A stretch of 60,822 nt of DNA from Reclinomonas americana ATCC 50394 (GCA_048213135.1 PS015019.1:7629-68450); one strand, 5' to 3'. Positions 10,192 through 45,483 are shown, counted from the stretch's first letter. The notes: generated by a model from the letters alone, not told the origin. Numbers and translations are program-made.

Positions 10192-13100
10192 TACGTACCG
10201 TACCNNNNNNNNNNNNNNNNNNNNNNNNNNNNNNNNNNNNNNNNNNNNNNNNNNNNNNNNNNNNNNNNNNNNNNNNNNNNNNNNNNNNNNNNNNNNNNNN
10301 NNNNNNNNNNNNNNNNNNNNNNNNNNNNNNNNNNNNNNNNNNNNNNNNNNNNNNNNNNNNNNNNNNNNNNNNNNNNNNNNNNNNNNNNNNNNNNNNNNNN
10401 NNNNNNNNNNNNNNNNNNNNNNNNNNNNNNNNNNNNNNNNNNNNNNNNNNNNNNNNNNNNNNNNNNNNNNNNNNNNNNNNNNNNNNNNNNNNNNNNNNNN
10501 NNNNNNNNNNNNNNNNNNNNNNNNNNNNNNNNNNNNNNNNNNNNNNNNNNNNNNNNNNNNNNNNNNNNNNNNNNNNNNNNNNNNNNNNNNNNNNNNNNNN
10601 NNNNNNNNNNNNNNNNNNNNNNNNNNNNNNNNNNNNNNNNNNNNNNNNNNNNNNNNNNNNNNNNNNNNNNNNNNNNNNNNNNNNNNNNNNNNNNNNNNNN
10701 NNNNNNNNNNNNNNNNNNNNNNNNNNNNNNNNNNNNNNNNNNNNNNNNNNNNNNNNNNNNNNNNNNNNNNNNNNNNNNNNNNNNNNNNNNNNNNNNNNNN
10801 NNNNNNNNNNNNNNNNNNNNNNNNNNNNNNNNNNNNNNNNNNNNNNNNNNNNNNNNNNNNNNNNNNNNNNNNNNNNNNNNNNNNNNNNNNNNNNNNNNNN
10901 NNNNNNNNNNNNNNNNNNNNNNNNNNNNNNNNNNNNNNNNNNNNNNNNNNNNNNNNNNNNNNNNNNNNNNNNNNNNNNNGAGAGAGAGAGAGAGTTGTAC
11001 CGTCACTCCCCAGTAAGGTGGCTGACGAGAGCCTTGTGTGTGAGAGCAGTCTTCGTCGGCGCTGCACACGCAAGTCGATGTGTACACATTCAATACTCGC
11101 GTCGAGGCCTGGGAACCGTTTATCGAGACGTGGACTCCCACCCTGACGGTTGGGCAACCAACAATGCAACCGCTTCCCACCTCACCAGTACCTCTCATTA
11201 TATTACGGTCTGTCCCTTCCGCAGATCGCCCGTGGTTCTGTGCTTTCACTCAAGCCCGTGGATGCCATTCTTGCCGACATGTTGGCATCGGAGCAAGTTG
11301 GTGTTGTACCAGACCCGTACCGCACACTGGGTGCTGGAGGTCCCATGTCGACCTCTGGTGCCGGAGGGAGTGGCTTGATTCGTGGTCGCGCGCAGCGCAC
11401 TGTCACACTGCTGGCGTCTTCCGACTCACTCGACATCAACATCACTGTGGGCTTGTTGTCGACCCTGGATCGCTTGCAGCGTGCACTGCTCGCATCGAGT
11501 GCGTATGCAGCAGCTCTTTGCGCAGTTTACGTATTGGACTGTCACTCACTTCTTTCTGTATACAAAGGTCCCTCGGAGCTGACAGCGGCCATGTACGTGC
11601 ACCCGNNNNNNNNNNNNNNNNNNNNNNNNNNNNNNNNNNNNNNNNNNNNNNNNNNNNNNNNNNNNNNNNNNNNNNNNNNNNNNNNNNNNNNNNNNNNNNN
11701 NNNNNNNNNNNNNNNNNNNNNNNNNNNNNNNNNNNNNNNNNNNNNNNNNNNNNNNNNNNNNNNNNNNNNNNNNNNNNNNNNNNNNNNNNNNNNNNNNNNN
11801 NNNNNNNNNNNNNNNNNNNNNNNNNNNNNNNNNNNNNNNNNNNNNNNNNNNNNNNNNNNNNNNNNNNNNNNNNNNNNNNNNNNNNNNNNNNNNNNNNNNN
11901 NNNNNNNNNNNNNNNNNNNNNNNNNNNNNNNNNNNNNNNNNNNNNNNNNNNNNNNNNNNNNNNNNNNNNNNNNNNNNNNNNNNNNNNNNNNNNNNNNNNN
12001 NNNNNNNNNNNNNNNNNNNNNNNNNNNNNNNNNNNNNNNNNNNNNNNNNNNNNNNNNNNNNNNNNNNNNNNNNNNNNNNNNNNNNNNNNNNNNNNNNNNN
12101 NNNNNNNNNNNNNNNNNNNNNNNNNNNNNNNNNNNNNNNNNNNNNNNNNNNNNNNNNNNNNNNNNNNNNNNNNNNNNNNNNNNNNNNNNNNNNNNNNNNN
12201 NNNNNNNNNNNNNNNNNNNNNNNNNNNNNNNNNNNNNNNNNNNNNNNNNNNNNNNNNNNNNNNNNNNNNNNNNNNNNNNNNNNNNNNNNNNNNNNNNNNN
12301 NNNNNNNNNNNNNNNNNNNNNNNNNNNNNNNNNNNNNNNNNNNNNNNNNNNNNNNNNNNNNNNNNNNNNNNNNNNNNNNNNNNNNNNNNNNNNNNNNNNN
12401 NNNNNNNNNNNNNNNNNNNNNNNNNNNNNNNNNNNNNNNNCCGACGTGCCACTCATTCACGCTGTTGAACTTGACTGGCGCACCGCTGGTGGTGTCGCGA
12501 GTCGGTCGCGGCGAGGATCGTGAATACGTTGTGGTCGACCCGGACGACAGGAAGCAGATGGCGGTGGATTTGCGTGCGACAGGGCTCGACGTTGAGTACC
12601 CAAGATAACGATGAGAAGAAGTGTGCGAGAAAGAGAGAGAGAGACTGATATTTTGTGCGCGTTTTTTCTTGCAGGCGGAGACGCAGTTCGAGCTCACTGT
12701 GCACGCCGCCTTCCCGGACACGGAGCCGGCAGTGATTGGACCCATGTCCATTCGCAAGAATGGTGTCGTCCACAAGCACATTCTTGGGACCAATGGCCGT
12801 GCACTGATTGTCGAAGTTGCGTCGCCGTGGGTGAAGCCGACTGATCTTGTGTGATCTGAGAGTTTCCGTGTGGTATCTATCAGTCGACGACCAGCAGCAA
12901 GGGCGAGCGTATTGTGGAACTGAAGTCACCAATCGAGGTCTACAATGCGACCTCGCACCCGCTGCGCGTCTGCTTGCGTGCGCGCGGTCGTCCTGATCGC
13001 TTCACTCCGGAAGCAATTCGTTTCGTGTGCTCGCATGTGTTACGTGGTCGCTGTGTTACTCATGCACGGCGTGCAAAACTACGTAGCGCCGGGTGGTAGA

Positions 13101-16100
13101 CTGTGTGTGCCGGTAGAGCGCTGCGCCGACGACTTTTCTCTGTGCAAGGAGGGTGCGCTTGAGTTCTCGGAGATGTGCGCTCTGCGACAGGCGATCAAAC
13201 GCAAACGCCCAGTCACGTCGCGCCAGAAGAGTGACTGTCACTTGTCGCTCACCCCCTTTTTCTGTCTCGCAGTTCTCGGCCGTGTACCAGCAGCGGTGGG
13301 GCGAGCAGTCGCACCTCACGGTGCGCAGTGTGGTGAGACAGCACTCGTCCACCGATCTTCTCGATTCGATCTTGGAGTTCAAGTTGCACACCCGTCCCCT
13401 CCCAGTGTGGCCTCCCGTAGCTACTTCTCACGTGATCCTTTGTCGCAGTACCTATCGTCTGGTGGTATCGCCGCTGATGGTGCTGGTCAATGCCATGCCG
13501 TCGTGGATGGACGTGACGGTGATGGCGGGTTCACCGGCTGCTCAGCATGCAGTGTACGAGAGTGCCATCGACGGCGGAGCACGTGCCGAACTGTACAGTG
13601 CCGCTGAGCAGCCACTGTTCCTTCTGGCCACACCAACCACTGGCCGCTGGCACGTGACACATCACGGCGCATGCGTATTTGATCCGCAGGGCAACAGTCT
13701 CGATTCGCGCTACACCATTGTCGACCGAGCCGGGCGCCGACTGGACGTGCTGCTGGCATACGAAGATTCCTCCACGTCACTTGTGCCACTGTGCACGCTC
13801 TATGTGAGCCATTGGATTGTGACACGATGTGACCTGCCGCTCATTGTTACGCGTGGTGGTGGTGACTTGGCGGCCGGTCAAAACGACCCGATGCATGCCA
13901 CACCAGCGGGCTGCACTGAACCGACTGCGGTGATTCCCTTTTCGTTCCACGACGCGGCACTCGGACACACGATTGCCGTCAGTATCGATGGTGGCGACTC
14001 GTTTTCGTCGCCGTTCTCCATTGATGCCATCGGGTGCGTGCGAACGAGTGGCGGAGGCACGTGGGACTGGTGATTGACATGTTTTCCCTTGCGCACAGAA
14101 CCTCTGGAATGTTGGAGTGTGAGACACATGCGGCCAAGGTGCGAGTGTCGTGCTCGGTGACCATGGCCACTGGGCTGGTGAGTGGACGGAGGGAAGAGGG
14201 AAGGGGATGAGTGAGATGGTGTGTACTCATTGATTTGGCAGTTTACACGAACGCGCTTGGTGACGCTGCGCTCTGCACACGTACTTGTGAATCAATCGAG
14301 CGGCGTTGTGCAAGTGCGACAGCAGTTTGCCGAGGAGGTGACTTTTTCGACTCGCCGACTCCTGCTTGTGTTCCAGCTCTCATGTTCCATGCTTGCACGC
14401 AGCTGGTGGTCCTCGACGGCTCCTCCCCGCAGTGCGATTTGCAGTGGATGACAGATGAGCCCACGCACCAGCTGCTGCAGTGTCGGCTGGTGGTCGACGG
14501 AGCACCACCGTTTGACTGGTTCGCCAGCAGTGTGTGAGCATACCCCTGTCACACTATGAAGTCATTCATCATGTGTGCATCGCACAGGAGCACGCCGTTT
14601 GCTGTCGACCGCTCGTCGTCCGACTTTGTGCTCAAGTTCCGCTCGCTGGCCGGTGGCGGCTACGCCATGATGCGCGTGGTGATTTATGAGTCGGCCTCCA
14701 CCACATTCATCAGCTTTGTGGATTACGACGTCAACGAACTGCGGCCGGATCTCTTGATCGAGAATGACACGAGTTCGCGTCTCTTTATTGCCGAGGAGGT
14801 ACGTGTTCTTACATGCGACAAAGTGAGTGATGACGCTCACTCGCCGCCGCCGCAACTGGTAGGGTCCGGACGCGGTGTGGTCACTGCCGCCGCACTGTCG
14901 CTTGCCTTTCTGCTTCGACCCTTCGTCGCCATCGCACAAGCTCGGTGTGTCGCTGACCGACGATCGAGCAGAGGTGGATACAGACCAGGTGCCGCAATGT
15001 GTGCGCATTACTGGCAGTGACGGAGACCCGCAACCAGCTCAGGGCGCCGCCTATGCCATCATGCTGAACCGTGGCGGGCATCGTGTGCTGGTTGTCGAGA
15101 GACACCGACGAGCACCGGTGAGTCAGTCAGTCTGCTGAGCATTCATCCTCCCCTGTGTGCTGTCACTCATGTACTCTGTGCACGAGCAGTCGCTTGACGC
15201 CTTGGCCAATCGTGCTGCCGAGGAGGAGGTGGACTCGGATGTGTATGTGTCGAGTGTGGAGTTTGCCTGCTGCCTGCCGGTTCTGCGCGTGTCACTCGTG
15301 AACCAAGTACCTCAAGTTGCATTTGCTTGCATTGCTGTTCACGACACGTCACGTATGTATACTCACATCCGCACGACTGTCGCAGGAGGTGTTACTGCTG
15401 TCGGTCAAGTCGCCGGTGTTCCAGTGGTCGTCGTCACTGCGGGCGCAGAGTGCCGAGTTCTTTGTGGCCGACATTCAGATCGACAACATGCTGTACGACT
15501 GCATCCACCCGGTGGCGCTGCGACCGTGCGCGCACTCGCTTAACCCCAATCGGCCCGTAGTGCACGCTGCCCTTGTCCGCAACATGAAAGGTGCGCGTTG
15601 GGCGGCCAGTGACCGCAGCGTGTGCGTGGGTGATGTGCATCTCAAGTGTGCGTCGCAGAATCGACGAGCAACTCGCTGGCGTTGGATTACGTCGGCTGCT
15701 CGGTACAAGAGCTCGAAGTGCGCCTGGACGAGCGCCTGCTGAATGTGGCTCTGGAGACCATTGATGCGGTGGCCAAGTCGACAGGCGATGGTGGTGTCGA
15801 TGCGCGCCTCGCAGCCGCTGATGTCGCACACGGCATCGGCGATGTTGATCTGGCCAAGTTGCGCACATGCTTTGCTCGCTGAGCCATGGAGCGCAACACT
15901 GACTTTGGTGCGCTGCTTTGTGTGAACAGCACGTTGCTCCTCACACAGCGGTGCGGGCCACTCCCTCAGCGCCCACAACGATTGTTCATTCGCGAGATGG
16001 ACATTCAGCCGCTGGCGCTGTACTTGTCGTTTGCTGGCGACATTAGTCTCTCCAGTGCCTCGAATCCACTCATCTCGCTGGCGGGCAGTTTCTTCAAAAA

Positions 16101-22258: not shown

Positions 22259-23547
22259 ATGCACGACGAGGAGGAGGAAGACCACGCGCACCATGAGGTA
22301 CCCGCGATGCACCAGCTGTTGCCTTTACCACCACAGCAACAGCAGCAGCAACAGCAACAGCAACAGCAGTCGTCGACAATGTGGACTCCTCGCGTGCTCA
22401 GTCTGATCGCCTGGACAGCTCCTGCCGGCGTGCTCACGCGCATGCTGCTGACGTCGTCGGTGCTGCAGCTGCACGGGAGCAGTGGTGACAGAGACATGTT
22501 TCACGTGACGCTGCTGCCCAACATGGGTTCGTGTCATCATTGCTGCTGCTGATCGCCACCAGCAGCTATTCTTCCGACCATCGCTCGCTTGCAGTCGGCT
22601 GTCTGTTCATGGGCGTGCTGTTTGCGCTGCGTGAGTCGCTTCTCTTGCAATCGCCGCATTTGCTGGTGGCGCTCAGCAGTGGGTTTTGTGGCTCACTGAC
22701 GACGTTTTCGGGGTGGATGGAGCTGGTGGCACGCGATCTCGATGCTGACGTGTATGCGGCTGCGTGGAAGCTGGCGAGTGGGATGGCGCTGGCCTACGGG
22801 TGCTTTGTGGTGGGCGAGCAGTGCGTACGGGCGTCGCCGGCGGCGAGTGCCTTTATCGGTCGCTCCCTGCAGCGGGTGACCTCGGTGGCGGCGCCGTTCA
22901 GGGAATCGCCGAGTTTCGTGTGCCACAGTCGCTGCCGACCCGTGTGCTGCTCACTTTGCAGGCAGGAGTGGTGCAGTGGATTGTCGTGGTGGTGGCCGGC
23001 TTGGTGCCTCTGTGTCTCTTTGCCATGCTCGCCGCATTCGAGATGCGCTTTCGCGTGGAGGTGCGTACTGCAAGTAGGAGTATCACTCTGCGCTACGGTT
23101 GCCAACCAGCTCTCCCCCGCAGTGGTGGTCTTCTCTCATCGCACCCACTGGCGCCTCTCTTCGCTTCTTCCTGGCCACGTACAACTCTCGGTATCCGCGC
23201 TTTCCGCTCTTCACGTGGACTGCCAACACCGTGGCGTGTCTGTGCACCGGCGCCGTACGCGTGGCTCTCACACACCTGCCCGCCTCCTCCCCCGCGCCGT
23301 TGCGTGCTCCGACCATGCATCGGCACGCTGGCGTGTCTCCCTTGCTCATCGCAGGCGCTGCAGGTGTCCGCTCTCCACCGCCGTGGTGACAGCGCTGCTG
23401 GTGGGCTTTTGCGGCTCACTGTCGACAGTGTCGACACTAATTGCCGAGCTGCACACACTGCCGTTTTGGCTGGCACTGTGGTACGCCACGGCGTCGGTGG
23501 TAATCGGCGTCGGCCTCATTGCATCCCTCGAAGCGCCGCTGACGTGA
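22259..23547 (+). CDS. FEX: FEX-type fluoride exporter (two fused Fluc/CrcB domains), 5 exons
   Basis: Two Fluc motif sets: GVLTR...PNMVGCLFMG...GFCGSLTTFSGW and GASLRF...FPLFTWTANTVAC...GFCGSLSTVST. Start codon is tentative; polyQ N-terminus. Confidence 0.9.
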
Positions 23548-24938: not shown

Positions 24939-26914
24939 CACACACACATGCACACATGCAAAGTGTGCTTTTTGCGGTTGCACTCTCTTGCTGTCATGCT
25001 CACACGCGCGACATGCATTTTATCACTCATGAGTGATCGATCATCATCAGACATGCATTTTGTTTGTTTGAGCTGACTGTGATCGGAACAATTTTTCGTG
25101 TTTTTCTTCTTGTTCTTCTTTAGGTGCGTCGAGCTACTTTTTGTTGCGTGCCAGTGCCTCTGGAGAGCGATGGGTGCTCGTGACGTACATTCCCGATTCG
25201 GCGCATGTGCGGCAGAAGATGGTTTGTCTCTCTCTCTCTCTTTGTCTTCAACCGTGCGATCGTGCGATCGTCTCCTCGTTCTTCTCTTCTGCTTCTTCTT
25301 CACTGCTCCGTCCCCCGTGCGCGTTGCTTCTCCATTGCTCTCCTTTCGTGCTTCCTTTTCACCTTCTTCGCGACTCTCTCTTCTTTCTCTCACACGCACT
25401 CGCTTCACCGCTCTCTTCCCTTCTCCCTCCTTCTCCCCTCCTTCTCCTCCTCCTCCTCTCCTCTCCTCTCTTCTCCTCTCCTCTCCTCTCCTCTCCTCTC
25501 TTCTCCTCTCCTCTCCTCTCCTCTTCTTTTCTCTGTTATCTCTCCTTCCTCTCCCTCTCCTCTCTCCTCCCTCTCCTCTCCTCTCCTCTCCTCTTCTTTT
25601 CTCTGTTATCTCTCCTTCCTCTCCCTCTCCTCTCTCCTCCCTCTCCTTTCCTCTCCACTCCTCTCCTCTCCTCTCCTCTCCTCTCCCTCTCCTCTCCCTC
25701 TCCTCCCTCTCCTCTCCTTCACTCTCCTCTCTTCTCCTCTCCTCTTCTCTCCTTTCCTCCCTCTCCTCCCTCTCCCTCTCCTCTCCTTCAACTCTCCTCT
25801 CTTCCCTCTCCTCACCTATCTCTCACTTCTCACCCTCCACACACAGATCTACTCCTCGTCCGTGGAGCCGGTGAAGCGCGTTCTCGGACCGGCGCTGTGG
25901 CACTGGATCACCGTCAACGATGTGCAGTCGTTGGCGCCGGAGGATGTATCGCCGGTGACGGCCGAGCATCGCAATGCGTTGATGTCGGAGGAGGAGCGCT
26001 CGATTCGTGCCGAGGTGAGAGAGAGAGACAGAGGCGACGGAAATGCTCACGCGGCTCACTCGTTTCGGCTTGCAGAACGCCATGCTCTCAGGCGCCAGCT
26101 CGTCGGGTCCCGTGGCCACCTCGGCTGGCTCCGGACTCGCCTTCCCGCTCTCCAGCGAGGCCGTGGCGGCCGTGGAGAGCGTGGCGTCGGATCCATCCTC
26201 GGGCAACCTGGTCAAGCTGGTGCGCTCCTCTTTCTTGTTGCGACCCACCTTCGCCTATGGTACCCACTGTCGTTGCAGGTGTTCGACAACGAAGTCATCA
26301 ACATTGACGGACGCCGTGCAGCGGTGGGACCGGAGGAGCTGCCGAACCACATGCCTGCTGGCCGGCCGTCATTCTTTGTCGTGCGCTACACGCACCAGTT
26401 TGAGGGCAGCAACGAGTCGCCACTGGGTGAGTGCGCTACCTGGCCCTCTCTCTTTTCCCGCTCTCTCACACCTTTCTTCGTCCGCAGTGGTGATTTACGT
26501 CTGCCCGGACGACGTGCCAGTGCGCCAGAAGATGCTGGCGAGCTCTGCCAAGGCCGGCCTCGTGGCCGAGATCGAACGCATCGCCTCCACACCGGTGGCA
26601 CTCAATGTTGCGCACACACGCGCTAAACTTGCTTGCTTCCCATCGACTGACACAGTGTTTGTGTGCTGTGCGCAGATGGAAGCCACCGACGCCGACGGCT
26701 TGTCACCCGACAACATTCTCGATCGCCTGCACCCACAGAGCCGCAACTCGAACGTCCACGCCGCCGCTCAAGCCGCCATGCAGCAGCGTCCAAAGAAGCC
26801 CGGTCGCGGTTCGTCCACTGTGTGGCACGAGTTCTCGTGAGAGGATCGCTCACTGCTCTTGTCGTTGCTGCAGGTCCCGCTCGTCTGCCCAAGCCTGTGC
26901 CGCCGCCCTCGTGA
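24596..26914 (+). CDS. TWF: Twinfilin (two ADF-H domains plus basic tail), 8 exons
   Basis: MSLTGIPLS...; [68 protein letters not shown]-terminal tail [12 protein letters not shown]. Confidence 0.9.
24827..24955. repeat. (CA)n microsatellite in twinfilin intron 1
   Basis: Direct inspection. Confidence 0.95.
25400..25815. repeat. CT-rich low-complexity tract (CTCTC-type) in twinfilin intron 2
   Basis: Direct inspection; includes a duplicated ctcttcttttctctgttatctctcc module. Confidence 0.9.
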
Positions 26915-28194: not shown

Positions 28195-29447
28195 CTCCTC
28201 CTCCTCCTCCTCCTCCTCCTCCTCCTCCTCCTCCTCCTCCTCCTCCTCCTCCTCCTCCTCCTCCTCCTCCTCCTCCTCCTCCCTCCCCCCCTTCCTCCTC
28301 CCCCTCCTGTCCCCCAGCGCTTCAAGCCGCCGTGCAGCGCTCTCCGAGACCCCCTCGCTGCACGTCATTTGCGCTGGCAGAACATACCATGCTCTGTTTT
28401 TCTCTGTCGGTCCTCGCTTTCTCTTTGCCTGCTCGTTCTCCTCTGGCCTTTCATGCGCATGAGTGCTTGTGCGCGCTTCACCGGCGCGCCCGCTCGGGCA
28501 TGAGGGGTCGGAGGAGAAACAGCAGGAGAGACTGGGAGGCCTGCGAGAGGGCGGCAGAGCGAGAGATTACAGAATGACCGCCCATGTCGCAGACACCGCA
28601 TGCGAGGCGGACAGATACGAGTCTCACATTCGTTGCCTTTTTTGCGCGCGCAGCCGGTGCCGACATCAAGGAGATGCAGCCAAAGTCGTTTGCCGACGTG
28701 TACTCGCAGCGCATGTTTGACGAGTTCGATTACGGCATTCGCGGGATTCACAAGCCAGTGCTGGCTGCCGTGAACGGCTTTGCGCTCGGCGGTGGCTGTG
28801 AGCTGGCCATGAGCTGCGACGTGATCTATGCAGGCGACAAGGTGCGCTGCGGGGGCGCTAACTTAAACCGCGTGACTTTTCTTGAATGCTCACCGATCCG
28901 TGCAGGCACAATTCGGGCAGCCCGAGATCAAGCTCGGCACCATCCCCGGCATGGGAGGCTCACAGCGCCTGACGCGTGCCATTGGCAAGTTCCGCTCGAT
29001 GCACATGAATTTGACGGGCGATTTTATCTCGGCAAAGGAGGCGGCGGAGTGGGGTTTGGCGGCCAAGGTGCGAGGCGGTGGCGGAGAAGCAGACATGGTC
29101 TGAACGTCGTACGCGCCTCACCCTTGTTATCACGCGCACAGATTTTCCCGGCCGAGGAGCTCGTCGACAAGGTCGTGGAGATTGGCGAAAAGATTGCCGG
29201 CTACTCGCAGATTGCTGGTGCGCCGTCCATGGTCATGTGCATCTTCTCTTGTCCCCGACACTCATCTATTTCCCCGTAAACAGTGGCCATTGCCAAGGAT
29301 GCGGTCAATGCTGCAGAGGAACTGTCGCTGAACGAGGGTCTCAAGTACGAGCGCCGCCTGTTCTGGTCGACTTTTGGCACTGTGGATCAAAAGGAGGGCA
29401 TGGCCGCGTTTACGGAGAAGCGCCCTGCCGCCTTCAAGAACAAGTAA
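27034..29447 (+). CDS. ECHS1: Mitochondrial short-chain enoyl-CoA hydratase (crotonase), 6 exons
   Basis: Transit-like exon [18 protein letters not shown] in phase with [12 protein letters not shown]...[12 protein letters not shown]...[23 protein letters not shown]...[26 protein letters not shown]...[13 protein letters not shown]. Confidence 0.96.
27567..28300. repeat. (CTT)n/(CT)n/(CCT)n compound microsatellite in enoyl-CoA hydratase intron 2
   Basis: Direct inspection. Confidence 0.95.
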
Positions 29448-29633: not shown

Positions 29634-32600
29634 TCACGTGCCTGAGGGCCATGCCGGCGACATGAAGCCTGGCGACTCGAGGTCGTCTCGCACAAACGGT
29701 GGCGCCGGCGACGCCAGTGGCAGTCGATTGGTCGCGCTCTGTTGACTGCGAATGTCGCGCAGCAGTGCCTTGGCCTCCTCCTTTTCCTGCAGATGGTCGA
29801 CGACATTGAGAGTATGACTCAGGTGGCGCATCGCATTGCAGCACGCAACTGGCGCTCCAGTGTCCAGCAGCTGCATGCAGTAGCTGATCGCCTCGTCGTT
29901 CTCACCGCACATGTGGTAGTACTGGGCCAGGAACATGAGAATCGGTGGCTCGACCGCGGCGTCACCCTGCAGTCGTCTCTGCACGAACACCAGCTTTGTG
30001 TACCAGTGCGCAGCCGTGTTCAAGTCATTCAGCTGCCGATACAACGCCGCTTGCTTGGCCAGCGCCACGGGATCGTACATGCGCAGCCAATTGTCGGGTT
30101 TCGAGTCGTCCAGCCCGTCCTCTTCGCGCGCTGCCCCCGTTGCTCCCCCAGCGGCTGCGCTGGCAGCGCCCGCAGTCGGCGACTCCTTGCCTCCTGCGTC
30201 CTCATTGGCCGACGAATCCACTCCCACAGCTGGCGTTGTGCGCGACGTGGACGAGGCCGACGGCGCGGCCGCCGCAGACGGTTGCGACGGTAGCGCCATC
30301 ACCACGTGCGATACCGGATGGGCGCGCCGATAGCATTCCAACGCCTCGCCGAATCGACGCAATTCCTCGTAGCAGCCGCCGAGCGCACACCACATGCGCG
30401 AGTCGTCTGGTCTCAACGTGGTAGCCTTGCGGTAGTAGTACAGGGCATACAGCGGCATGTGCAGCAGCTCGTACGTCTGACCCAGGCCGTACCAGGCGCG
30501 GTAGTCCCGCACGTTGATGTCTGTGGGAGAGTGCACAGAGTGAGCAAGGGAGACACGAGCTGGCCTTGATGCACACACACACATACCAACAGCCTTGCGA
30601 TACACGTAGATGGCGGCACCAATGTTCTTCAGCTCAATGTACTCGTGGCCCATCAGTGTCCACGCCGACACGTAGCTGCAGAAAATCTGTGAGACTCAAC
30701 CAACCCATTGCGTCACCAAACAAAAAGGAGAGACGCAACGTGGGATCCATTTGCAGCGCGCGGCGCAAGTACACCAGTGCCTTCTGGTGTTGTCTCCGCA
30801 GCGAGTAGTAGTTGCCGACCACACAGCACGTCTCCGGGCGGTACTTGTTCGCGGCGTGACACGCGTGCGCCAGTCGCGCTAGGGCACTGCGTTCCTCGCG
30901 CACGTAAAGAATGTTCGAATACATGTCCATGAGCTCCACGGCGAACGGATCGCGAATCACCAACTCCTCAAAGCACTCGTTGCTGGCCTCAAAATCTGCG
31001 GCACAGCAGCATGAGTCACGGGAAACGGAAGCATTGGCGTGATGCGCACTCACCTCGCAAAATCGAGTGCGCCGTCGCCCGTGGCCTCAACAACGTCAGC
31101 GCCGATGTCGCCAACAACTGCGTCTCCGCCGACGGTGGACCTTCCTCCGGCGCCATGAGCTGTTGCACGGCCAGCAACGCATCGCGCGGCTGCTGCAGCT
31201 CGACGCTCAGGTGCGCGATAAAATACTGAAATGCCCAGTGCTGGCGCACGGCACCGAAATCCAGTGTGGCGAACTGTGCGACGCGCGACAATGAGAGGTG
31301 GGAAACAGAGCTGGCGCACGGGAGAGCAACGCACATGCACGCGCTGTTGCGACACGAGTGTCGACAGCTCGACAAACGCCGACCACAAACAAGGATACAT
31401 TTGCAGCGCCGTGCACAGGCAGCGCGCGGCTCGTTCGTACTCGGCCAGGCGCGATAGTACAACGCCGTACAGGTACGAGTTGAAAGCGTCCAAGTCGCCG
31501 GCTGCGAGATGCGCGTGAGTGCTGCCCATCTCTCAGTCCATTCTCTCTCACACACACTCTCCAAAACCTTTCGCATCCGAGTCCAAATCATTGGCCAGCT
31601 CCTGCAACTCTCGATTCGGCTCGTGCACGCCAGCGAGGACGCCTGAGTGACGCTCTGTTTGCTCCTGTCGAGCACGCTCCTCGCCAGCCAAGTAGCGCGA
31701 GTAGCGGCGCAGGAAGCGAGCCTGGAAGGAGGAGAAGTGATTGGCAAGGAAGAGAGAAAGAGCAAGAGAAGAAGAAGGAGAAGAAGAAGGAGAAGGTGAA
31801 GAAAGAAGAGAAGAAGAAGAAGAATGAGGAGGAGAAGAAGGAGAAGAATACGAGGAGAGAGGAGAGTAGACAAGAGAAGAGAGGAAAGAGAGGGAGACAG
31901 GTGAGAAGAGCCGTGAGTGACAAACAAGAGAGAGGGAGAGAGGAGGATGAGGAGGAGGAGGAGGAGAAGAAGAAGAAGAAGAAGAAGAAGAAGAAGAAGA
32001 AGAAGAAGAAGAAGAAGAAGACGAAGAGCTGTGAGTGACAAACAAGAGAGAGGGAGAGAGAGGAAGAAGAAGAGACAAGAGAGTAAGTGAGATGCGGAAA
32101 GAAGAGAAGAAAGAAGAGGATACGGAGAGAAGAGAAGAGAGGGAGACAGGTGAGAGGAGCCGTGAGTGACAAACAAGAGAGGGAGAGACAAGAGAAAGAG
32201 AGAAAGAGAGAGAGAGTGAGGAAAGAGTAGAGACAAGAGAGAAATAAGAGTCACAGATCCCTCCCTTCAGTACGCACTCACCTTCTGTGAACGACACTGG
32301 CGGAGACTATATGAACAGCGACGCAGTTCTGCGCCCTCAAAGTACGACAAGGCCAGCGCGTATGTGTCATAATCCGCCCAGAAATCACTCGCCTGTTGCA
32401 CCAGTGAGCATTCTCTCTCTCTCTCACACACACACTGTGTCTCGCAACTTCCTCTTGCGCGACAGGTGCAGCAGCAGATGGTCGACATGAGGGAAACTGT
32501 GTGCTCACATCGTGCAGCACTTGCACCGCCCTGTGTGTGTTTGAGTGTGTGGTTGTTCAAACTCTCACTGTTTTGTCTCTCTCTCTCTTTCACGCACCAA

Positions 32601-32686
32601 CGCGCAGCATTGCGCAGACCGCGTGTGCCACAGTCGTGCGCAGCGTGACGCAGTTGTGTGGACCACTCCTGCGCGCGCTCTTCCAT
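29634..32686 (-). CDS. CDC23: Anaphase-promoting complex subunit 8 / CDC23 (TPR protein), multi-exon
   Basis: [102 protein letters not shown]. Confidence 0.96.
31745..32245. repeat. GA-rich tract with three gtgagtgacaaacaagagag modules in a CDC23 intron
   Basis: Modules at about 31913, 32031 and 32162, embedded in (GAA)n/(GGA)n. Confidence 0.9.
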
Positions 32687-33376
32687 CACTGAGTGAGGTT
32701 TTGTGGACGTTTTGTGAATGCGCGGGAAATGTGTGGGACAACTCACATACAACAGCAGGTTGCGTGGACGCCTACGGAAGCAGTAGTTGAGGGAGACGAA
32801 GTGGAGTAGGTGTTGGCGACGAGCTGAGTTGCGCGCAGAGAGAGAGAGGAGTCCAACCAACAACGTCGCACAATGCGACGTCGCGAAGATCCCGATATTC
32901 GCAGTCATGTCGAGGTGCAGCCGGTCAGCAACGGTGCGAGCCAGTGCACGTGCTGATCGTCCGTGCTCAGCCAAGCAGCGCTCCGCGTATATACATGTGG
33001 TTATTTCGATCGCGAAGTTGCAATTGGGCCGCGCTCGCCAGCTGCTCAACCGCAACAAACAATCGAAGCCCAACCACGAACCCAATTCACATACACAGCC
33101 TCTGCATCCATCCCTCTCCTCCGTATCACACAGGCCCACACGCACAGAGACCATCCAGCTGATCATGATCATGAGCGTTCGGATTCTCAAAAAACTCCAA
33201 TAACAACGCCTGCAGCCGCCCTTCTCGTGCACAGAGCTTCTCCAGGACACACTTTTACACCATACCCACCGGTCCGCGTACACAGCAGCAACATACACCA
33301 GCGCATCCACGCAAAAACGTCACAGGACAACCGTACTCTGTCTCTCTCCACCCACGCACCTTTTGCGACAGGAGAG

Positions 33377-38475: not shown

Positions 38476-38710
38476 AGAGAGGAGTCGTCCGACGAGAGAN
38501 NNNNNNNNNNNNNNNNNNNNNNNNNNNNNNNNNNNNNNNNNNNNNNNNNNNNNNNNNNNNNNNNNNNNNNNNNNNNNNNNNNNNNNNNNNNNNNNNNTGT
38601 TGCTGCTGCTCTTGTTGGGGTTTCTGTTGCGCAGTGGAGGGGGCGTTGGTGGGCTTGTTGGCGGTGCTGGGTGGCGCTTGTTGCACGGGAACACTGCCAC
38701 CACAGCCCAT
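37066..38710 (-). CDS. N-acylated (MGCGGS) EF-hand-like protein with a duplicated ~110-aa domain, multi-exon with gap
   Basis: Starts MGCGGS (myristoylation/palmitoylation pattern). Two repeats end in EF-hand-like LFADMDPARRGHVSRADFE and LFPMLDTRHAGSVQQPEFE. Stop at 37066-37068. Confidence 0.75.
38426..38472. repeat. (GT)n microsatellite in an intron of the EF-hand gene
   Basis: Direct inspection. Confidence 0.95.
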
Positions 38711-39245
38711 TTTGTTGCGTTTCGTCTCTCACTCACGACGATGGAATGAAAATCAATCCGTTTGTCATGTGCCGCAATCGGACGTTATTGGATTGTCGGC
38801 GGAACGTGCAGCTATCCATCGTTGAAGAACGGCATTGTGTTGTTGCTAGGCTTCAATGCTCACAGAATATAATTCACGGTGGACGCTGCGTTTGCAGAAT
38901 TAATTGCGCACGACGTCGACGTTGTATTCGGAGAACGAGGCTCTGTTTGCTTCGGCTGTGCTTGGAAGGCGTACATACCTGTCAAGTACAGATGGCCGGC
39001 AGCACGGTAGGCTTCCTATGTGCGATCCTCGCCTCTCCGATCGCCAAGTCCATCTCGACGTCGACGTCGACGTTTTCCAATTGCAAATGCTTCCCACGAG
39101 GTTTGCAGCTGCCGTATTTCCATGATCTCTGGTAAAACTCGTGCCTCTCTTTCCTCCTCTCCTGCTCCAGGCTGTGCAGTTGAGGAGAAGGCGCGTTAAT
39201 CGTCCTCAAGATCTTTTCGGACAGAGTGCCTTTGTGGCACGAGGG

Positions 39246-41772
39246 ATGGCGCCGTTCCTGTACTTCTGCAGCCAGTGGACGTCCATTGATGCCATGGTGG
39301 ATGTGTTCTCGGGCACCTCGTGCAACTGGGTGTGTGCAGTCGCGCACAACGGTGATTGCAACGCAGCGATCATTGCAACTCACACTTGCCACGCAGTCGT
39401 TGCAGCAGGCGTTCATCTACAACGAAAAGACTGTGCAGTTCACGGTGGATGCGGTGTTTAGGGGTGTGGCGCTGGGGTTCTGTGTTTTAGGACTGCTGGT
39501 GAGTGGACACTCACATCTTCACACGCACCCTCTCTCACACACGCGCACTCACTGCTGCTGTTCAGCTGGTCTTCCGGTTCAGAAAGCGCGATGCTGTGAG
39601 GAACAGATCGCCAAGGCTGCTTATTCTGCTGGTGCATTCATCGCTCTGCATGCATGTTCGGATTTTGGGTTCCACGCTCATTATCATTCGTTCCCTCCGA
39701 TCCCTCCCCACCGCGCATATTACCCCTTGCGTATGGCAGTATATTGTCGGCATCATCGTGATGTCTCTTCGCCTGGCTTCTGATTTCGCACGCGACGAGG
39801 TCAGCACCCGCCCCTTTTCACGAAGTTCCGAGACCGCTTTGTCTCAATCGCCGCCCCCTGCGCGCACAGTTTCTCTGGATCGACTATGTGGACTCGTACA
39901 TTTCGCTCCCCGCCGTGCTTCTCGTGCCACTGGTGAGCGTCGTCCTTGCGCATGCTGCATAGTTCTGGATCCGCCCTCACTCGTCTCCACCACCGCGCAG
40001 CTGCGCGCGATTCGGGTGTTTCTTGCCGCACGGGCGTCGAGGTCGACCGCCGCTGCTGCTCGGAACGCCAATAGCGAGCGAGAGGAGGCGCGCGCTGTGG
40101 AAAAGATGATGAAACGAACGCGGCTGAGCAAGCGTCTGAGGTGTGTCTCGCTCCTCTTCGCGTGTTCTTCATGCCTGCCGCTCACCACTGCAGCTTGGCA
40201 GGGAGAATGTGATGTTGGCCTTCTGGTATCCCACGGCCATGACGCCCTTTATGGTTGGTGTGTCTCACAGGGACTGCGTGCGTGCGCCTCGCTCACTCGT
40301 GTGGCAGATCGCGTTCCTGAGTTCGTATTTTACAAGACCAAGTGTGCCGGCTGTCGAGCTCGAGTACTTTTGCTCGCATCTGGACGAAGTGTACTGCCCC
40401 TTCTTCAACGCCCAGCATGCGGTGGTGATCTTTGCTTGTGCGCTGGTGCGTGTTGAGTGACTCTTTGTCGACGCGCACGCTCACCCTCTGACAATTGTAT
40501 GTGCAGACCCTTGCCTTTGGTGTGGCGTACACGGTCATTGCCCTGGTCCTCCTGCGGCGTGTCAACGACGCGTTTTCAGTGGCCTCCGAGTTGCGTGCTT
40601 GCTGGATGTGGAAAGAGAGAGAGAGAGGAACGCTCATTGCTCACCCTGTCGTGCAGGTTGAAAGTTCTCTCGTGCATTATCGCGTTGACCGCGCTGCCTT
40701 TTGCCATTACGCGACTGGCCGGTCCTCCGTCGGAGAAAATGTGGTTGGCGCCCTTTGAGCAGGCACTGTCTGGCGTGTTCTACTTGGTGGGTCCTGCTTG
40801 TCGTCGTCATCATCTCGACCCTTCTAAATTCTGATTGCGCACATGCATCGCAGGCGGTGACAATCACGCCGCTGGCCGCCATTCTTCGCCACTGGCGACG
40901 CGAAGTGTTGAGAGAGCACTCGTCGCGACAGCGGAGTGCCACGTGGGGATCGCAGACACTCTCGCAGCGCATGATCGAGCGACCGGAGCCGTCGTTCCTG
41001 GACATCCTGCAATCCATCGACGGGCGCCAGGCGTTTCGGGAGTACCTGGGTGAGTGACCGACGCACTCGAACTGCCTTGTCGTCGTTACACTCATCACCG
41101 TCATGCAAAAACAGCCACCGAGTTTGCTGTGGAAAACCTCCAGTTCTACGAGCGTGTGCAGGAGTACAAGGAGAAGGGAGTGCGTGCGCGTGCTGATGAT
41201 TCTGTGTGTGCTGTTCAGTTGTCTCTGACGCACTCCTGACAGCAAGCCTACGAGGAGCTGGCGACCAAGTCGGCGGAGCAGAGTGCCGAGCTGCGTCGCT
41301 TTGGGCAGTCGATTGTCGACGACTTTCTCACCGACAATGCACCGTTCGAGCTGAACCTGCCGAGCAAGTCGCGGAGGGCGGTGATGAGCGCAATCGAAGT
41401 GGGCGGGCCGGATGTGTTTGTGCGGCGGCATGAGTGGCCGTCGGAATCGCAGACCTCACTCAAGGGCACAAGTAGGGAGAGTGACGAGTGGCCGTGTGGT
41501 GAGTGGGAAGAAGGGGAGATGAAAGAAGCTGCGTGGCCTTGACACAACGCGTGTGCTTTGTGTGATGCAGTCTTCGATCCGGCTCTGCTGTCGGTGCTCA
41601 GATTAATGCGCAGCGACAGCTTCTCGGTGAGTGAGACGAGTTGTGCCATCTGCAAGTGCAGTCGACTCACTTGCGTCGCGGATGTGCGCAGCGATTCCTG
41701 CGGTCGCCGATTTACGCACGATTGATATCGGAATCAACAGAGATGATAGAGATGAAGGCGAACCTGTTATAA
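39246..41772 (+). CDS. 7TM-RGS: multi-pass membrane domain fused to an RGS domain, multi-exon
   Basis: TM exons with RKRDAVRNRSPRLL, LLVPL|LRAIRVF and DAFSVASE|LK, then RGS: FLDILQSIDGRQAFREYL|ATEFAVENLQFY...IVDDFLTDNAPFELNLPSKSR...FDPALLSVLRLMRSDSFS|RFLRSPIY. Confidence 0.88.
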
Positions 41773-42163: not shown

Positions 42164-45100
42164 ATGATGCGCTCGCATTCTGTGACATCGGTGGTGGTGC
42201 TCCTCGTGCTTCTCAGTGTGGTGGCACTGGCGGCACCGCGCACACCCGCTGTGCAAATCTACAATGGATCCACCCTCTTGTGTGGTGAGTGCGAATGTGT
42301 GTGAGTGTGCGTGCTCACCCTTGAGCTCTCTCTCATCACTCTCTCTCTTTCTTGCGCGCAGCGGGTGTGATGGTGTCGTCGACGGAGGTGTTGACGGCGG
42401 CCTCGTGTGTTGGCACACTGAGTGTGTCGTCGCTGTCGGTGCAGGTGGACGGGCAGACTGTGGCAGTGCAGGTGTGTGTGTGTGTGTCTCGTGAAAGGAC
42501 AAGTCTGTGCGCGAGGGCTGACTTGTCGGTGCGCAGTCGATTTTGAACGCGCAGGCTGGCGGCGAGCAAGGCGGTCAACAGGGTGGCCAGCAGGGCGGCC
42601 AGGAGGGTGGCCAGCAGGGCGGTCAGCAGGGCGGTCAGCAGGGTGGCCAGCAGGGTGGCCAGCAGGGTGGCCAACAGGGCGGTCAGCAGCAGGGTGGCCA
42701 ACAAGGCGGCCAGCAGGGTGGCCAACAGGGTGGCCAACAGGGTGGTCAGCAAGGTGGCCAGCAGGGTGGCCAGCAAGGTGGCCAGCAGGGTGGCCAACAG
42801 GGTGGCCAGCAGGGTGGCCAGCAGGGTGGCCAGCAGCCTCCGCAGCAAGGTGGTGAGCAGGGCCAGCAAGGCGGCCAGCAGCAGCCCCCTCAGCAGGGTG
42901 GCCAGCAGCAGGGCGGCCAGCAGCAGGGTGGCCAACAGCAGGGTGGCCAACAGCAGGGTGGCCAGCAGCAGGGTGGCCAGCAGCAAGGTGGCCAACAGCA
43001 GGGTGGCCAGCAGCAGGGTGGCCAGCAGCAGGGTGGCCAGCAGCAGGGCGGCCAACAGCAGGGCGGCCAACAGCAGGGTGGCCAACAGCAGGGCGGTCAG
43101 CAGCAGGGTGGCCAGCAGCAGGGCGGCCAGCAGCAGGGTGGCCAGCAGCAGGGCGGCCAGCAGCAGGGCGGCCAGCAGCAGGGTGGCCAGCAGCAGGGCG
43201 GTCAGCAGCAGGGTGGCCAGCAGCAGGGCGGCCAGCAGCAGGGCGGCCAGCNNNNNNNNNNNNNNNNNNNNNNNNNNNNNNNNNNNNNNNNNNNNNNNNN
43301 NNNNNNNNNNNNNNNNNNNNNNNNNNNNNNNNNNNNNNNNNNNNNNNNNNNNNNNNNNNNNNNNNNNNNNNNNNNNNNNNNNNNNNNNNNNNNNNNNNNN
43401 NNNNNNNNNNNNNNNNNNNNNNNNNNNNNNNNNNNNNNNNNNNNNNNNNNNNNNNNNNNNNNNNNNNNNNNNNNNNNNNNNNNNNNNNNNNNNNNNNNNN
43501 NNNNNNNNNNNNNNNNNNNNNNNNNNNNNNNNNNNNNNNNNNNNNNNNNNNNNNNNNNNNNNNNNNNNNNNNNNNNNNNNNNNNNNNNNNNNNNNNNNNN
43601 NNNNNNNNNNNNNNNNNNNNNNNNNNNNNNNNNNNNNNNNNNNNNNNNNNNNNNNNNNNNNNNNNNNNNNNNNNNNNNNNNNNNNNNNNNNNNNNNNNNN
43701 NNNNNNNNNNNNNNNNNNNNNNNNNNNNNNNNNNNNNNNNNNNNNNNNNNNNNNNNNNNNNNNNNNNNNNNNNNNNNNNNNNNNNNNNNNNNNNNNNNNN
43801 NNNNNNNNNNNNNNNNNNNNNNNNNNNNNNNNNNNNNNNNNNNNNNNNNNNNNNNNNNNNNNNNNNNNNNNNNNNNNNNNNNNNNNNNNNNNNNNNNNNN
43901 NNNNNNNNNNNNNNNNNNNNNNNNNNNNAGCAGGGTGCGCCGCTCGTCGTCCTCCGCCTAGCCTCGGCGGTGACGCTCTCCTCGTCCCCGCCGTCGATCA
44001 GCACCTCGGACACGCACAGCTTGTCGGGAATGCCGGTGGTGGTCCTGGTGCCCAATGGCGCCCCGGTGTACACCTCGGTGTCGTCGGCCAGCACCACCAC
44101 TACTACCACTGTGCGCGCGGCCGATCCGAACTGCCGCCCGACCAACGGGTCGGTGTGCCTCAACGATTGCGTCGAAGGTGCCTCCGGTGCGCCGATCCTG
44201 TCGGCCTCCACCGGCGAGCTGGTGGCCGTCGGCAGCGGCGCTGCGGCCGGTGCGTCGTGCTCGGGCAGTGCGGTGGCGGTGGCACCCGCCGCCACCTGGG
44301 TGCACGAGGTGGCTCCGCAGAGCACTCTGGCACAGTCGACCACCTCTGGCGGCAGCGCCTCGTCTTCATCGTCGAAGCGCACACTGATCATCGGCCTGTC
44401 CGCGGGACTCGGTGGCGGTGCGCTGGTGGCCGTCGGNNNNNNNNNNNNNNNNNNNNNNNNNNNNNNNNNNNNNNNNNNNNNNNNNNNNNNNNNNNNNNNN
44501 NNNNNNNNNNNNNNNNNNNNNNNNNNNNNNNNNNNNNNNNNNNNNNNNNNNNNNNNNNNNNNNNNNNNNNNNNNNNNNNNNNNNNNNNNNNNNNNNNNNN
44601 NNNNNNNNNNNNNNNNNNNNNNNNNNNNNNNNNNNNNNNNNNNNNNNNNNNNNNNNNNNNNNNNNNNNNNNNNNNNNNNNNNNNNNNNNNNNNNNNNNNN
44701 NNNNNNNNNNNNNNNNNNNNNNNNNNNNNNNNNNNNNNNNNNNNNNNNNNNNNNNNNNNNNNNNNNNNNNNNNNNNNNNNNNNNNNNNNNNNNNNNNNNN
44801 NNNNNNNNNNNNNNNNNNNNNNNNNNNNNNNNNNNNNNNNNNNNNNNNNNNNNNNNNNNNNNNNNNNNNNNNNNNNNNNNNNNNNNNNNNNNNNNNNNNN
44901 NNNNNNNNNCGTGGTCTTGGCCATTGTGCTGATGCGCCGTCGTCGTCGCCACTCGCTGCAGCAGCATCAGATGAAGAAGCTCGGCTCCACTGCCTCGTCG
45001 GTGGTCATTGACATGAAGACGGGTGCAGCGGCGGCCACGGACGACCTGCACACGAGTGGCTCGACAACTCCCGACGAGTGCGGCCTCAGCGATATTGACC

Positions 45101-45483
45101 TGGAGAGTGCCCGCAGCACTACACGCCTCGCTGGCGGCGATTGCACACGCGATCCCGACGCCAACAGCAACTGGTCACGGTCGTCGTCGCACGCTTGGCT
45201 GCCGACCGTGCCGTGCACCAACATTGCGTTCGACGAAAATGCTTCGTCGTCGGCCGGATTGCCGTCACCGCCAGCCAGCGCACATGCGGCGCATCGCCAC
45301 TCGCCGCCGCCACCACCGTTGCCGGCGCTTTCGCGGTCCGCATCGGCCATGGTGGCCGTGCGACCAGCCTTGGGTGGCGAGGCCAGCGCAGATGCAGTGT
45401 ACCTGCCGAACTACTCGCCACCACAGTCGCCGGTGCTGTCGTCCACTCGCGACTCGTCTCGGGCGCCAGTTGTCGCGCCTTGA
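42164..45483 (+). CDS. Type I membrane protein with a catalytically degenerate trypsin-like (S1) fold interrupted by a Gly/Gln repeat
   Basis: Signal peptide MMRSHSVTSVVVLLVLLSVVALA; LC|AGVMVSSTEVLTAASCV; GGQ repeat; APLVVLRLASAV; DCVEGASGAPIL; ELVAVGS...C...ATWVHEV; TM LIIGLSAGLGGGALVAVGVVLAIVLM followed by RRRRR; Ser/Pro-rich tail. Confidence 0.8.
42558..43933 (+). repeat. Coding tandem repeat (GGQQ)n followed by (GGQQQ)n, partly in an N gap
   Basis: 12-nt period to about 42835, two PPQ breaks, then 15-nt period to 43251. Synonymous variation (GGT/GGC, CAG/CAA). Resumes as AG CAG GGT after the gap. Confidence 0.95.

What the first reader, a model, noticed from the sequence alone, without database searches (positions are those of the whole stretch)
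42164..45483. Membrane pseudo-protease with a long Gly/Gln repeat inserted inside the trypsin fold
Seen: S1-protease landmarks occur in the correct order but degenerate. LCAGVMVSSTEVLTAASCV matches CGG.L....VLTAAHC with catalytic His replaced by Ser. GAPLVVLRLASAV matches DIALL.L with the catalytic Asp missing. DCVEGASGAPIL matches C.GDSGGPL with Ser kept. LVAVGS..C..ATWV closes the fold. Between the His and Asp segments lie at least ~230 codons of (GGQQ)n then (GGQQQ)n, which probably continue through the gap up to QG|APLVVL. Signal peptide, TM, stop-transfer RRRRR and a Ser/Pro/Tyr tail complete a type I receptor layout. Inference: a non-catalytic surface protein presenting a glutenin- or prion-like Q/G loop, which could serve as elastomer, adhesive, transglutaminase substrate or length-variable antigen. 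I do not recognise this architecture.
Basis: partly seen in the sequence, partly recalled or inferred. Interest (0 to 1): 0.72.

Follow-up and report, generated by a model that had tools for sequence, protein, structure and literature searches.

The report
Dead protease carrying giant glutamine-glycine loop
A gene of an unidentified single-celled eukaryote encodes a cell-surface protein whose inactive trypsin-like domain has a stretch of over 230 glycines and glutamines looped out of its middle, probably a sticky, self-clinging coat element; inactive trypsins are common, but I found no other with such an insert.

Summary
A two-intron gene encodes a signal peptide, a degenerate S1A (trypsin-fold) domain, a stalk, one TM helix, RRRRR and a 182-aa Ser/Ala/Pro tail. 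At least 231 Gly/Gln codons sit in the 99-loop, just before the Asp102 strand. A second haplotype (G000:C121) repeats the layout. The repeat is under selection as protein: 104 of 148 unit mismatches fall at codon position 3, and all 111 units stay in frame. N-gaps here are often inflated (835 N = 0 bp), and joining both gaps at zero gives a clean 675-aa ORF, so the repeat may end near 233 aa. The repeat-less domain aligns end to end with S1A (HHalign 92%, E 8.5e-8; global z 11); the C-half alone is weak. Catalysis is lost: His57→Ser, Asp102→Pro, Asp194→Ala, no IVGG terminus. All six ectodomain cysteines fit the three core disulfides. No orthologue was found, no RNA run was listed, and function is untested. 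Most likely it is a membrane-anchored pseudoprotease scaffold displaying a cohesive, disordered loop.

The parts
42164..42284 (+). Exon 1: ATG, signal peptide (~aa 1-23), then S1 strands from about residue 28 to Cys42; no IVGG activation terminus
   Evidence: hydropathy peak at aa 6-24 (no signal-peptide predictor run); identical in haplotype C121
42285..42361 (+). Intron 1 (77 nt, GT-AG, phase 1)
   Evidence: indels between haplotypes fall inside it
42362..42471 (+). Exon 2: S1 N-barrel; His57 position is Ser (TCG at 42403-42405), followed by Cys58
42472..42536 (+). Intron 2 (65 nt, GT-AG, phase 0, CTGAC branch-like motif); an alternative in-frame AG lies at 42554
42537..42557 (+). Start of exon 3: seven residues matching the S1 strand that runs into the 90s loop
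42558..42836 (+). Repeat block 1, mainly (GGQQ)n: 93 codons here, 116 in haplotype C121
42837..42896 (+). 20-codon linker with two Pro-Pro pairs; same protein sequence in both haplotypes
42897..43251 (+). Repeat block 2, (GGQQQ)n: 118 visible codons (128 in C121), cut by the gap
43252..43928 (.). Assembly gap 1 (677 N); true size unknown, flanks join in frame and in 15-bp unit phase, so 0 or a multiple of 15 fits best
43934..44317 (+). S1 C-half: Asp102 position is Pro; GWG motif lost; Cys168, Cys182, Cys190/191, Cys220; Gly193, Asp194→Ala (44180-44182), Ser195 kept (44183-44185); Trp237 helix
44318..44383 (+). Ser/Thr/Ala-rich stalk (~21 aa), holding the only ectodomain Lys
44384..44934 (+). 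Single TM helix, split by gap 2 (44437-44909, 473 N), which is most likely 0 bp
   Evidence: the join makes a Gly codon whose third base is a SNP between haplotypes, as at the calibrated zero-length gap 11606-12440; hydropathy
44935..45483 (+). RRRRR stop-transfer and a 182-aa low-complexity cytoplasmic tail with a PPPPPLP motif; TGA at 45481-45483
   Evidence: 7 synonymous, 0 replacement differences and one in-frame codon indel between haplotypes

Best explanation
This is a functional gene for a type I membrane S1A pseudoprotease. Shown or strongly supported: secretion signal, one TM helix, loss of the triad and of the Ile16-Asp194 switch, and a translated Gly/Gln array of at least 231 residues in place of the 99-loop. 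Inferred: the two halves still fold into one disulfide-stapled chymotrypsin double barrel that pins both ends of the array beside the former substrate cleft. [quoted passage not shown] The protein would then build a cohesive surface coat or adhesive patch, with the Pro-rich tail linking it to the cell interior. Odds: anatomy about 0.85; cohesive coat or adhesion role about 0.5 given the anatomy.
For: S1 fit: HMM from 25 unrelated S1A proteins gives N-half 21.6 bits and joined domain 20.7 bits, 0 of 1000 shuffles; a second HMM from 70 bacterial S1A gives 23.8 and 20.5, 0 of 1000; HHalign 92%, E 8.5e-8 against that one profile, 181 columns of 189 residues. The ESM Atlas, with no alignment from me, puts the C-half nearest Peptidase_S6 and Trypsin clusters at 0.95. 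Six ectodomain Cys map to 42-58, 168-182, 191-220. Repeat coding: 104 of 148 mismatches at codon position 3, 87 synonymous vs 25 replacement codons against about 141 vs 531 sites, no frame-breaking indel in 111 units. The repeat has no CTRAY branch-like motif and no pyrimidine tract. Gene under constraint: 252 N-terminal coding nt identical and 7 synonymous / 0 replacement changes in the tail, while flanks are 90-93% identical with indels. The 99-loop takes insertions of up to 11 residues after residue 95 in kallikreins (PMC4256358, passages). Ala194 with loss of Ile16 marks the inactive PRSS23, and haptoglobin's dead S1 domain presents a protruding loop (PMC13194640, passages). Gly- and Gln-rich chains collapse in water (PMC11672150 and PMC8713295, passages).
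Against: No Pfam or PDB sequence hit to S1 for any single exon, and the Pfam Trypsin scan of the genome missed this locus (23 matches, none here). C-half HMM scores are weak (6.8, 0.7, 3.1 bits). The Atlas hits share only 136 of 256 features, below the 170 typical of same-family hits. Single-sequence AlphaFold of the C-half gave pLDDT 35; the pLDDT 70.5 model and its S1 Foldseek hits (best E 1.5e-3) rest on an S1 alignment that I supplied, so they are largely circular. The GWG and SWG motifs are gone and the fifth Cys aligns one residue early. The two haplotypes and the repeat units are not independent samples. No orthologue exists to show that the insert is old. Nothing tested bears on function.
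Confidence: 0.45

Rival explanations
1. The working part is the S1 pseudo-domain, a ligand-binding receptor or protease decoy. The array is a slippage expansion in a tolerant loop; selection only keeps it polar, uncharged and in frame, and it acts at most as a shield or spacer.
For: Dead S1 domains commonly act as ligands, cofactors or scaffolds (PMC13194640). Low-complexity inserts in surface loops of globular domains are frequent in Plasmodium (PMC2705789, passages). Allele lengths differ. The genome holds another dead type I membrane S1 gene with no such repeat in its modelled domain (C894/C86). No relative shares the insert.
Against: The array is a third of the protein, has two ordered blocks and a conserved linker, and shows strong purging of replacement changes. 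The S1 C-half is far more eroded than a binding domain would suggest.
Confidence: 0.27
2. The loop is a glutamine donor for a transglutaminase that cross-links it to a Lys-rich partner in a wall, cyst or coat.
For: 54% Gln, extracellular. Transglut_core matches exist in the assembly: 10 matches, some on contigs of the size range that carries the eukaryotic genes.
Against: Only one ectodomain Lys, so no self-crosslinking. I did not examine the matches; several lie on bacterial-type contigs, and that Pfam fold also covers non-crosslinking enzymes (recalled).
Confidence: 0.12
3. The repeat is removed from the main mRNA by splicing from the intron 2 donor to the AG just before the Asp102 strand, which is in frame, giving an ordinary compact pseudoprotease.
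For: The skip is in frame and an AG is available. No RNA data were available.
Against: Codon-position bias and perfect frame conservation mean the array is translated at least in part. There is no branch or pyrimidine signal. The skip would also delete the strand encoded at 42537-42557.
Confidence: 0.07
4. The S1 domain is a relic that no longer folds as one unit, or the loop is cut so that the halves part; the protein is in effect a mucin-like Q/G surface polymer with a small capped end.
For: Weak C-half scores, a Ser/Thr-rich C-half, loss of GWG and of the first ~12 residues of the fold, pLDDT 35 without an alignment.
Against: Colinear end-to-end alignment, all six Cys kept with none extra, Trp237 kept, Atlas recognition of the C-half.
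Confidence: 0.09

Closest known systems
S1A serine protease homologues (pseudoproteases): PRSS23/PRSS35, haptoglobin, HGF/MSP beta chain, protein Z, scabies mite inactivated paralogues (PMC13194640, passages); oomycete glucanase inhibitor proteins (PMC3091767, passages)
   Same: Chymotrypsin-type domain without a working triad or activation switch; PRSS23 also has Ala194 and no Ile16; haptoglobin shows a dead S1 domain presenting a loop.
   Different: The passages I read describe none with a type I anchor plus an insert longer than the domain itself. No sequence relationship beyond general S1A likeness was found.
Classical kallikreins KLK1-3 with the extended 99-(kallikrein) loop (PMC4256358, passages)
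   Same: Insertion at the same loop, just before Asp102; flexible and partly disordered.
   Different: 11 residues there, at least 231 here; the kallikreins are active soluble enzymes.
S1A family of the same assembly: C369/C273, C5353/C8128 (TM), C5177/C5382 intact; C894/C86 dead with TM; C61/C3812 Ser195→Thr
   Same: Intron-split secreted or membrane-anchored S1A genes; C894 shares type I layout, loss of catalysis and short motifs around the Asp102 strand and last helix.
   Different: Neither repeat pattern occurs at these loci; all those whose N-terminus I read keep an IVGG-like start. C894 scores 104 by local alignment, no better than the best bacterial S1A (115; median 69 of 70), so close paralogy is not shown. 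Their intron near Cys42 lies one codon away from this gene's (seen in C5177, C894).
Gln/Gly-rich structural or prion-like polymers (wheat glutenin, MaSp1-type silks; PMC5424786, passages)
   Same: High Gly and Gln content, tandem units, predicted disorder; glutenin and MaSp1 are placed in the zone compatible with both elastic and amyloid behaviour.
   Different: Here almost no Pro (1.7%), no Tyr, no aromatic residues, and the polymer is a closed loop on a membrane protein. I did not place it on the published Pro/Gly plot.
Plasmodium low-complexity insertions in globular domains (PMC2705789, passages)
   Same: Polar repeat extruded from a surface loop of an enzyme fold in a protist.
   Different: Mostly Asn runs driven by genome composition; here a single-locus, codon-constrained two-block G/Q array in a dead extracellular domain.

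Membership tests
Clan PA / S1A chymotrypsin-fold domain | Colinear homology over both barrels | tested here: met
   HHalign 92%, E 8.5e-8, 181 columns; global z 11.0, 0 of 300 shuffles, scored against 25 of 70 sequences; N-half HMM 0 of 1000
Clan PA / S1A chymotrypsin-fold domain | Reaches the Pfam PF00089 gathering score | tested here: not met
   No hit for single exons; locus absent from 23 genome matches. The spliced protein could not be scanned against Pfam.
Clan PA / S1A chymotrypsin-fold domain | Core disulfides 42-58, 168-182, 191-220 (numbering recalled) | tested here: met
   Exactly six ectodomain Cys at these positions, one displaced by one residue; the pairing itself is inferred
Clan PA / S1A chymotrypsin-fold domain | Folds as a double beta-barrel | tested here: inconclusive
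   pLDDT 35 without alignment; 70.5 with an imposed S1 alignment, C-half only; the joined domain could not be folded
Active S1A protease | His57-Asp102-Ser195 triad | tested here: not met
   Ser, Pro, Ser; His57→Ser in both haplotypes
Active S1A protease | Ile16-Asp194 activation switch | tested here: not met
   No IVGG-like segment after the signal peptide; Ala at 194
S1 pseudoprotease (serine protease homologue) | S1 homology with catalytic machinery lost | tested here: met
   rows above
S1 pseudoprotease (serine protease homologue) | No measurable proteolysis; a binding or scaffold role | not testable with these tools
   needs protein
Type I membrane protein | Signal peptide, one TM helix, basic stop-transfer | tested here: met
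   Two hydropathy peaks only (aa 6 and 475 windows), RRRRR at 494 in the zero-gap model; no dedicated predictor was available
Glutenin-like elastomer | Pro- and Gly-rich repeat with cross-linkable residues | tested here: not met
   Pro 1.7%, no Tyr, Cys or Lys in the repeat; criterion from PMC5424786 passages
Prion-like / amyloid Q-rich domain | Self-templating cross-beta assembly | not testable with these tools
   Only composition is known: Q 54.5%, G 42.5%
Transglutaminase substrate | Reactive Gln plus Lys acceptor and a secreted enzyme | tested here: inconclusive
   One ectodomain Lys; 10 Transglut_core matches in the assembly not characterised

The most novel reading that the evidence does not exclude
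The dead trypsin fold has been co-opted as a disulfide clamp that holds a Gly/Gln polymer as a closed loop on the cell surface. The loops assemble into a membrane-anchored hydrogel or functional amyloid, and allele-specific block lengths tune cell-to-cell cohesion or kin recognition, with the Pro-rich tail passing the state inward.
Probability: 0.12. Interest if true: 0.8.

Novelty: new variant of a known kind. Interest (0 to 1): 0.46.

Why it matters
It shows an S1 domain keeping its cysteine frame around an insert longer than the domain itself, about twenty times the kallikrein loop at the same site. If the loop is cohesive, it is a compact natural model of a prion-like polymer tethered at both ends on the outside of a cell, and a candidate coat or adhesion molecule of a little-studied protist. 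As it stands it is one unexpressed-as-far-as-known gene with no relatives, built from known ingredients.

Tried and rejected
Wrong frame: (protein 1), 8 and 9 read the post-gap segment from 43933 instead of 43934; those results are void. Searches repeated the question in the right frame; the word-index search was not repeated. One search's figure of 82 of 85 third-position variants is biased, because units were chosen by a protein pattern; one search replaced it with DNA-level tiling, where many of the 25 'replacement' codons come from forcing units over the Pro linker. Sequencing runs: none was listed, so no reads were laid; this is no evidence on expression. The complex prediction for the two halves was not available, so there is no verdict. 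Alignment A1 misplaced the start of the C-half on the His57 region and was dropped for A4. Own-genome protein searches found only the locus itself, its sister haplotype and four chance matches with E 0.2-0.8. A first scan of bacterial genomes with the intact C369 trypsin found nothing. My first splice model of C894 was out of frame and was corrected. Gap calibration: of 37 gaps examined, 8 had both flanks anchored and an N-free counterpart; one was mis-anchored and dropped; of the four with at least 300 N, three measured 0 or less and one measured 190. Hidden microexons restoring IVGG or His57 were considered and rejected by inspection only: the introns are 77 and 65 nt. Of 32 G/Q-rich proteins of 418-2000 aa (best 8000 candidates scored), none has a Trypsin annotation and none scores against my S1 HMM (best E 0.19). 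An Atlas search of unnamed clusters gave only leads at 0.85 or lower. Literature searches for this architecture showed no match in their listings; I saw titles and abstract starts only, and the library lacks most subscription papers. The organism's lineage was not tested. No supplementary files were read.

Full report
Gene structure. The window is G000:C11:7629-68450, in a 108 Mb, 16,441-contig assembly that holds an intron-rich eukaryote, paired haplotype contigs and large bacterial-type contigs. Reading the sequence gives exon 1 at 42164-42284, a 77-nt GT-AG intron, exon 2 at 42362-42471, a 65-nt GT-AG intron, and a last exon from 42537 through the repeat, two N-gaps and the tail to TGA at 45483. 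A second copy on C121 is collinear with the window over tens of kilobases at 93-96% identity, so I read it as the other haplotype. It has the same exons, the same repeat and one gap that covers the middle segment. That middle segment (43929-44436) occurs once in the assembly, as expected if identical haplotype sequence was collapsed.

The gaps. I compared gaps in each haplotype with the other. Of 37 gaps, 8 had both flanks anchored and an N-free counterpart, and one of these was mis-anchored and dropped. Of the four with 300 N or more, three measured zero or less (775, 835, 1019 N) and one measured 190 (319 N). The 835-N gap breaks exactly at a SNP between haplotypes. Gap 2 of this gene has the same signature: the left side ends two bases into a Gly codon, and the right side begins with C in one haplotype and T in the other. 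It is therefore most likely zero-length, and the TM helix is continuous. At gap 1 both haplotypes stop at the same phase of the 15-bp unit, and the middle segment resumes in that phase, so the missing DNA is best read as 0 or a multiple of 15 bp. With both gaps at zero the model is a clean ORF of 675 aa.

The repeat is protein-coding. It has 231 visible codons here and 264 in C121. Block 1, bounded by unique sequence on both sides, is 93 vs 116 codons; the 20-codon linker is unchanged in protein; block 2 shows 118 vs 128 codons before the gap. Tiling the DNA with the two units and no protein filter placed 111 units, all in codon phase, with 104 of 148 mismatches at the third position and 87 synonymous against 25 replacement codons, where sites run about 141 to 531. 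Units and haplotypes share history, so the nominal P value overstates the case, but an intron or neutral satellite would not show this pattern. The array has no CTRAY motif and its end is pyrimidine-poor. An in-frame skip to the AG before the Asp102 strand cannot be excluded without RNA. Both repeat patterns occur only at these two loci in the assembly. The rest of the gene is also constrained: 252 N-terminal coding bases are identical, and the tail has 7 synonymous and no replacement differences, while the flanks are 90% and 93% identical with indels.

The fold. Single exons hit neither Pfam nor the PDB as S1, and the Pfam Trypsin scan of the genome missed the locus. I therefore built profiles from unrelated S1A proteins: 25, and 70 of the 79 bacterial loci. 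The N-half scores 21.6 and 23.8 bits and the repeat-less domain 20.7 and 20.5, with 0 of 1000 shuffles reaching them. The C-half alone scores 6.8, 0.7 and 3.1 bits (1, 73 and 25 of 1000 shuffles), but global alignment to 25 S1A C-halves gives z 5.3 (0 of 300), and the Atlas ranks clan PA clusters first at 0.95 with no input from me. HHalign covers 181 columns of the 189-residue domain at 92% probability. AlphaFold without an alignment was uninformative. With an S1 alignment it gave pLDDT 70.5 and S1 neighbours in Foldseek, none at E 0.001 or better; that test is largely circular. Mapped on an S1A reference, His57 is Ser, Asp102 is Pro, Asp194 is Ala, Ser195 and Gly193 are kept, GWG and SWG are lost, and Trp237 is kept. 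The mature chain starts near residue 28, with no IVGG. The ectodomain has exactly six Cys, at the 42-58, 168-182 and 191-220 positions, one displaced by a residue (numbering recalled). The array replaces roughly residues 94-99, the 99-loop.

How it most likely works. It cannot be a protease: two triad residues and both halves of the activation switch are gone. PRSS23 has the same Ala194 and no Ile16 and shows no activity (PMC13194640, passages). The retained cysteines and colinearity suggest a folded clamp that holds both ends of the array. The array is uncharged apart from three Glu and has no aromatic residues; its contour length would be about 83 nm. [quoted passage not shown] That last step is inference only. 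The main rival is that the S1 surface does the binding and the loop is a tolerated expansion; Plasmodium offers many such loop inserts (PMC2705789, passages). Cross-linking by transglutaminase needs a Lys-rich partner, as the ectodomain has one Lys. A glutenin-type elastomer fits poorly with 1.7% Pro (PMC5424786, passages).

Relatives and novelty. HMMER over 1.84 billion cluster representatives found nothing at E 0.001 for the C-half. Among 32 G/Q-rich proteins of suitable length none carries an S1 domain. The assembly has its own small intron-split S1A family, including an intact TM form and a second dead type I form on C894/C86, but that one is no closer by alignment score than the best bacterial S1A. 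Dead S1 domains are well known, and the 99-loop is a known insertion site, up to 11 residues in kallikreins (PMC4256358, passages). The listings of five literature searches (titles and abstract starts only) showed no S1 domain with a long G/Q insert, and the scan's own notes held none. It works like an S1 pseudoprotease scaffold and meets the sequence criteria for one; it is not an active S1A protease. I rate it a new variant of a known kind: real and odd, but a singleton with no expression data and no tested function. The lineage is unresolved; earlier notes on this assembly disagree and I did not test them.

Noticed in passing
window 3-2028 and 2237-4268: Two 96.9% identical tandem copies split by an N gap, both with VPS13_N matches; probably two haplotypes scaffolded in tandem rather than a true duplication.
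   Followed up: partly
window 10205-10979 and 11606-12440; G000:C121:230159-231177: Gaps of 775-1019 N correspond to zero bases in the other haplotype; N counts in this assembly should not be read as lengths.
   Followed up: yes
window ~38600-41770 (+): Upstream many-intron gene with hydrophobic segments and a C-terminal RGS domain (weak Pfam match, E 0.0026); looks like a membrane receptor-RGS fusion.
   Followed up: no
G000:C894 (L072:2100-3660) and its pair C86: A second dead type I membrane S1A gene: His57→Glu, Asp102→Asn, Ser195→Leu, IVGG kept.
   Followed up: partly
G000:C61 (L071:1500-2940) and its pair C3812: S1A gene with Thr at the Ser195 position and a Thr-rich, hydrophobic C-terminus suggestive of a GPI signal; His57 not resolved.
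   Followed up: no
window 13117-14070, 22489-23544, 26019-26837, 28578-29276, 29637-33319: Ordinary neighbours by Pfam: VPS13 VAB domain, CrcB fluoride exporter, cofilin/ADF, enoyl-CoA hydratase, APC8/CDC23 with TPRs.
   Followed up: no
G000:C1, C2: Megabase contigs with intronless HtrA-type protease genes at 49-50% GC: bacteria co-assembled with the eukaryote.
   Followed up: no
G000:C2110, C331, C291, C338: Transglut_core matches outside the large bacterial contigs; identity unexamined.
   Followed up: no
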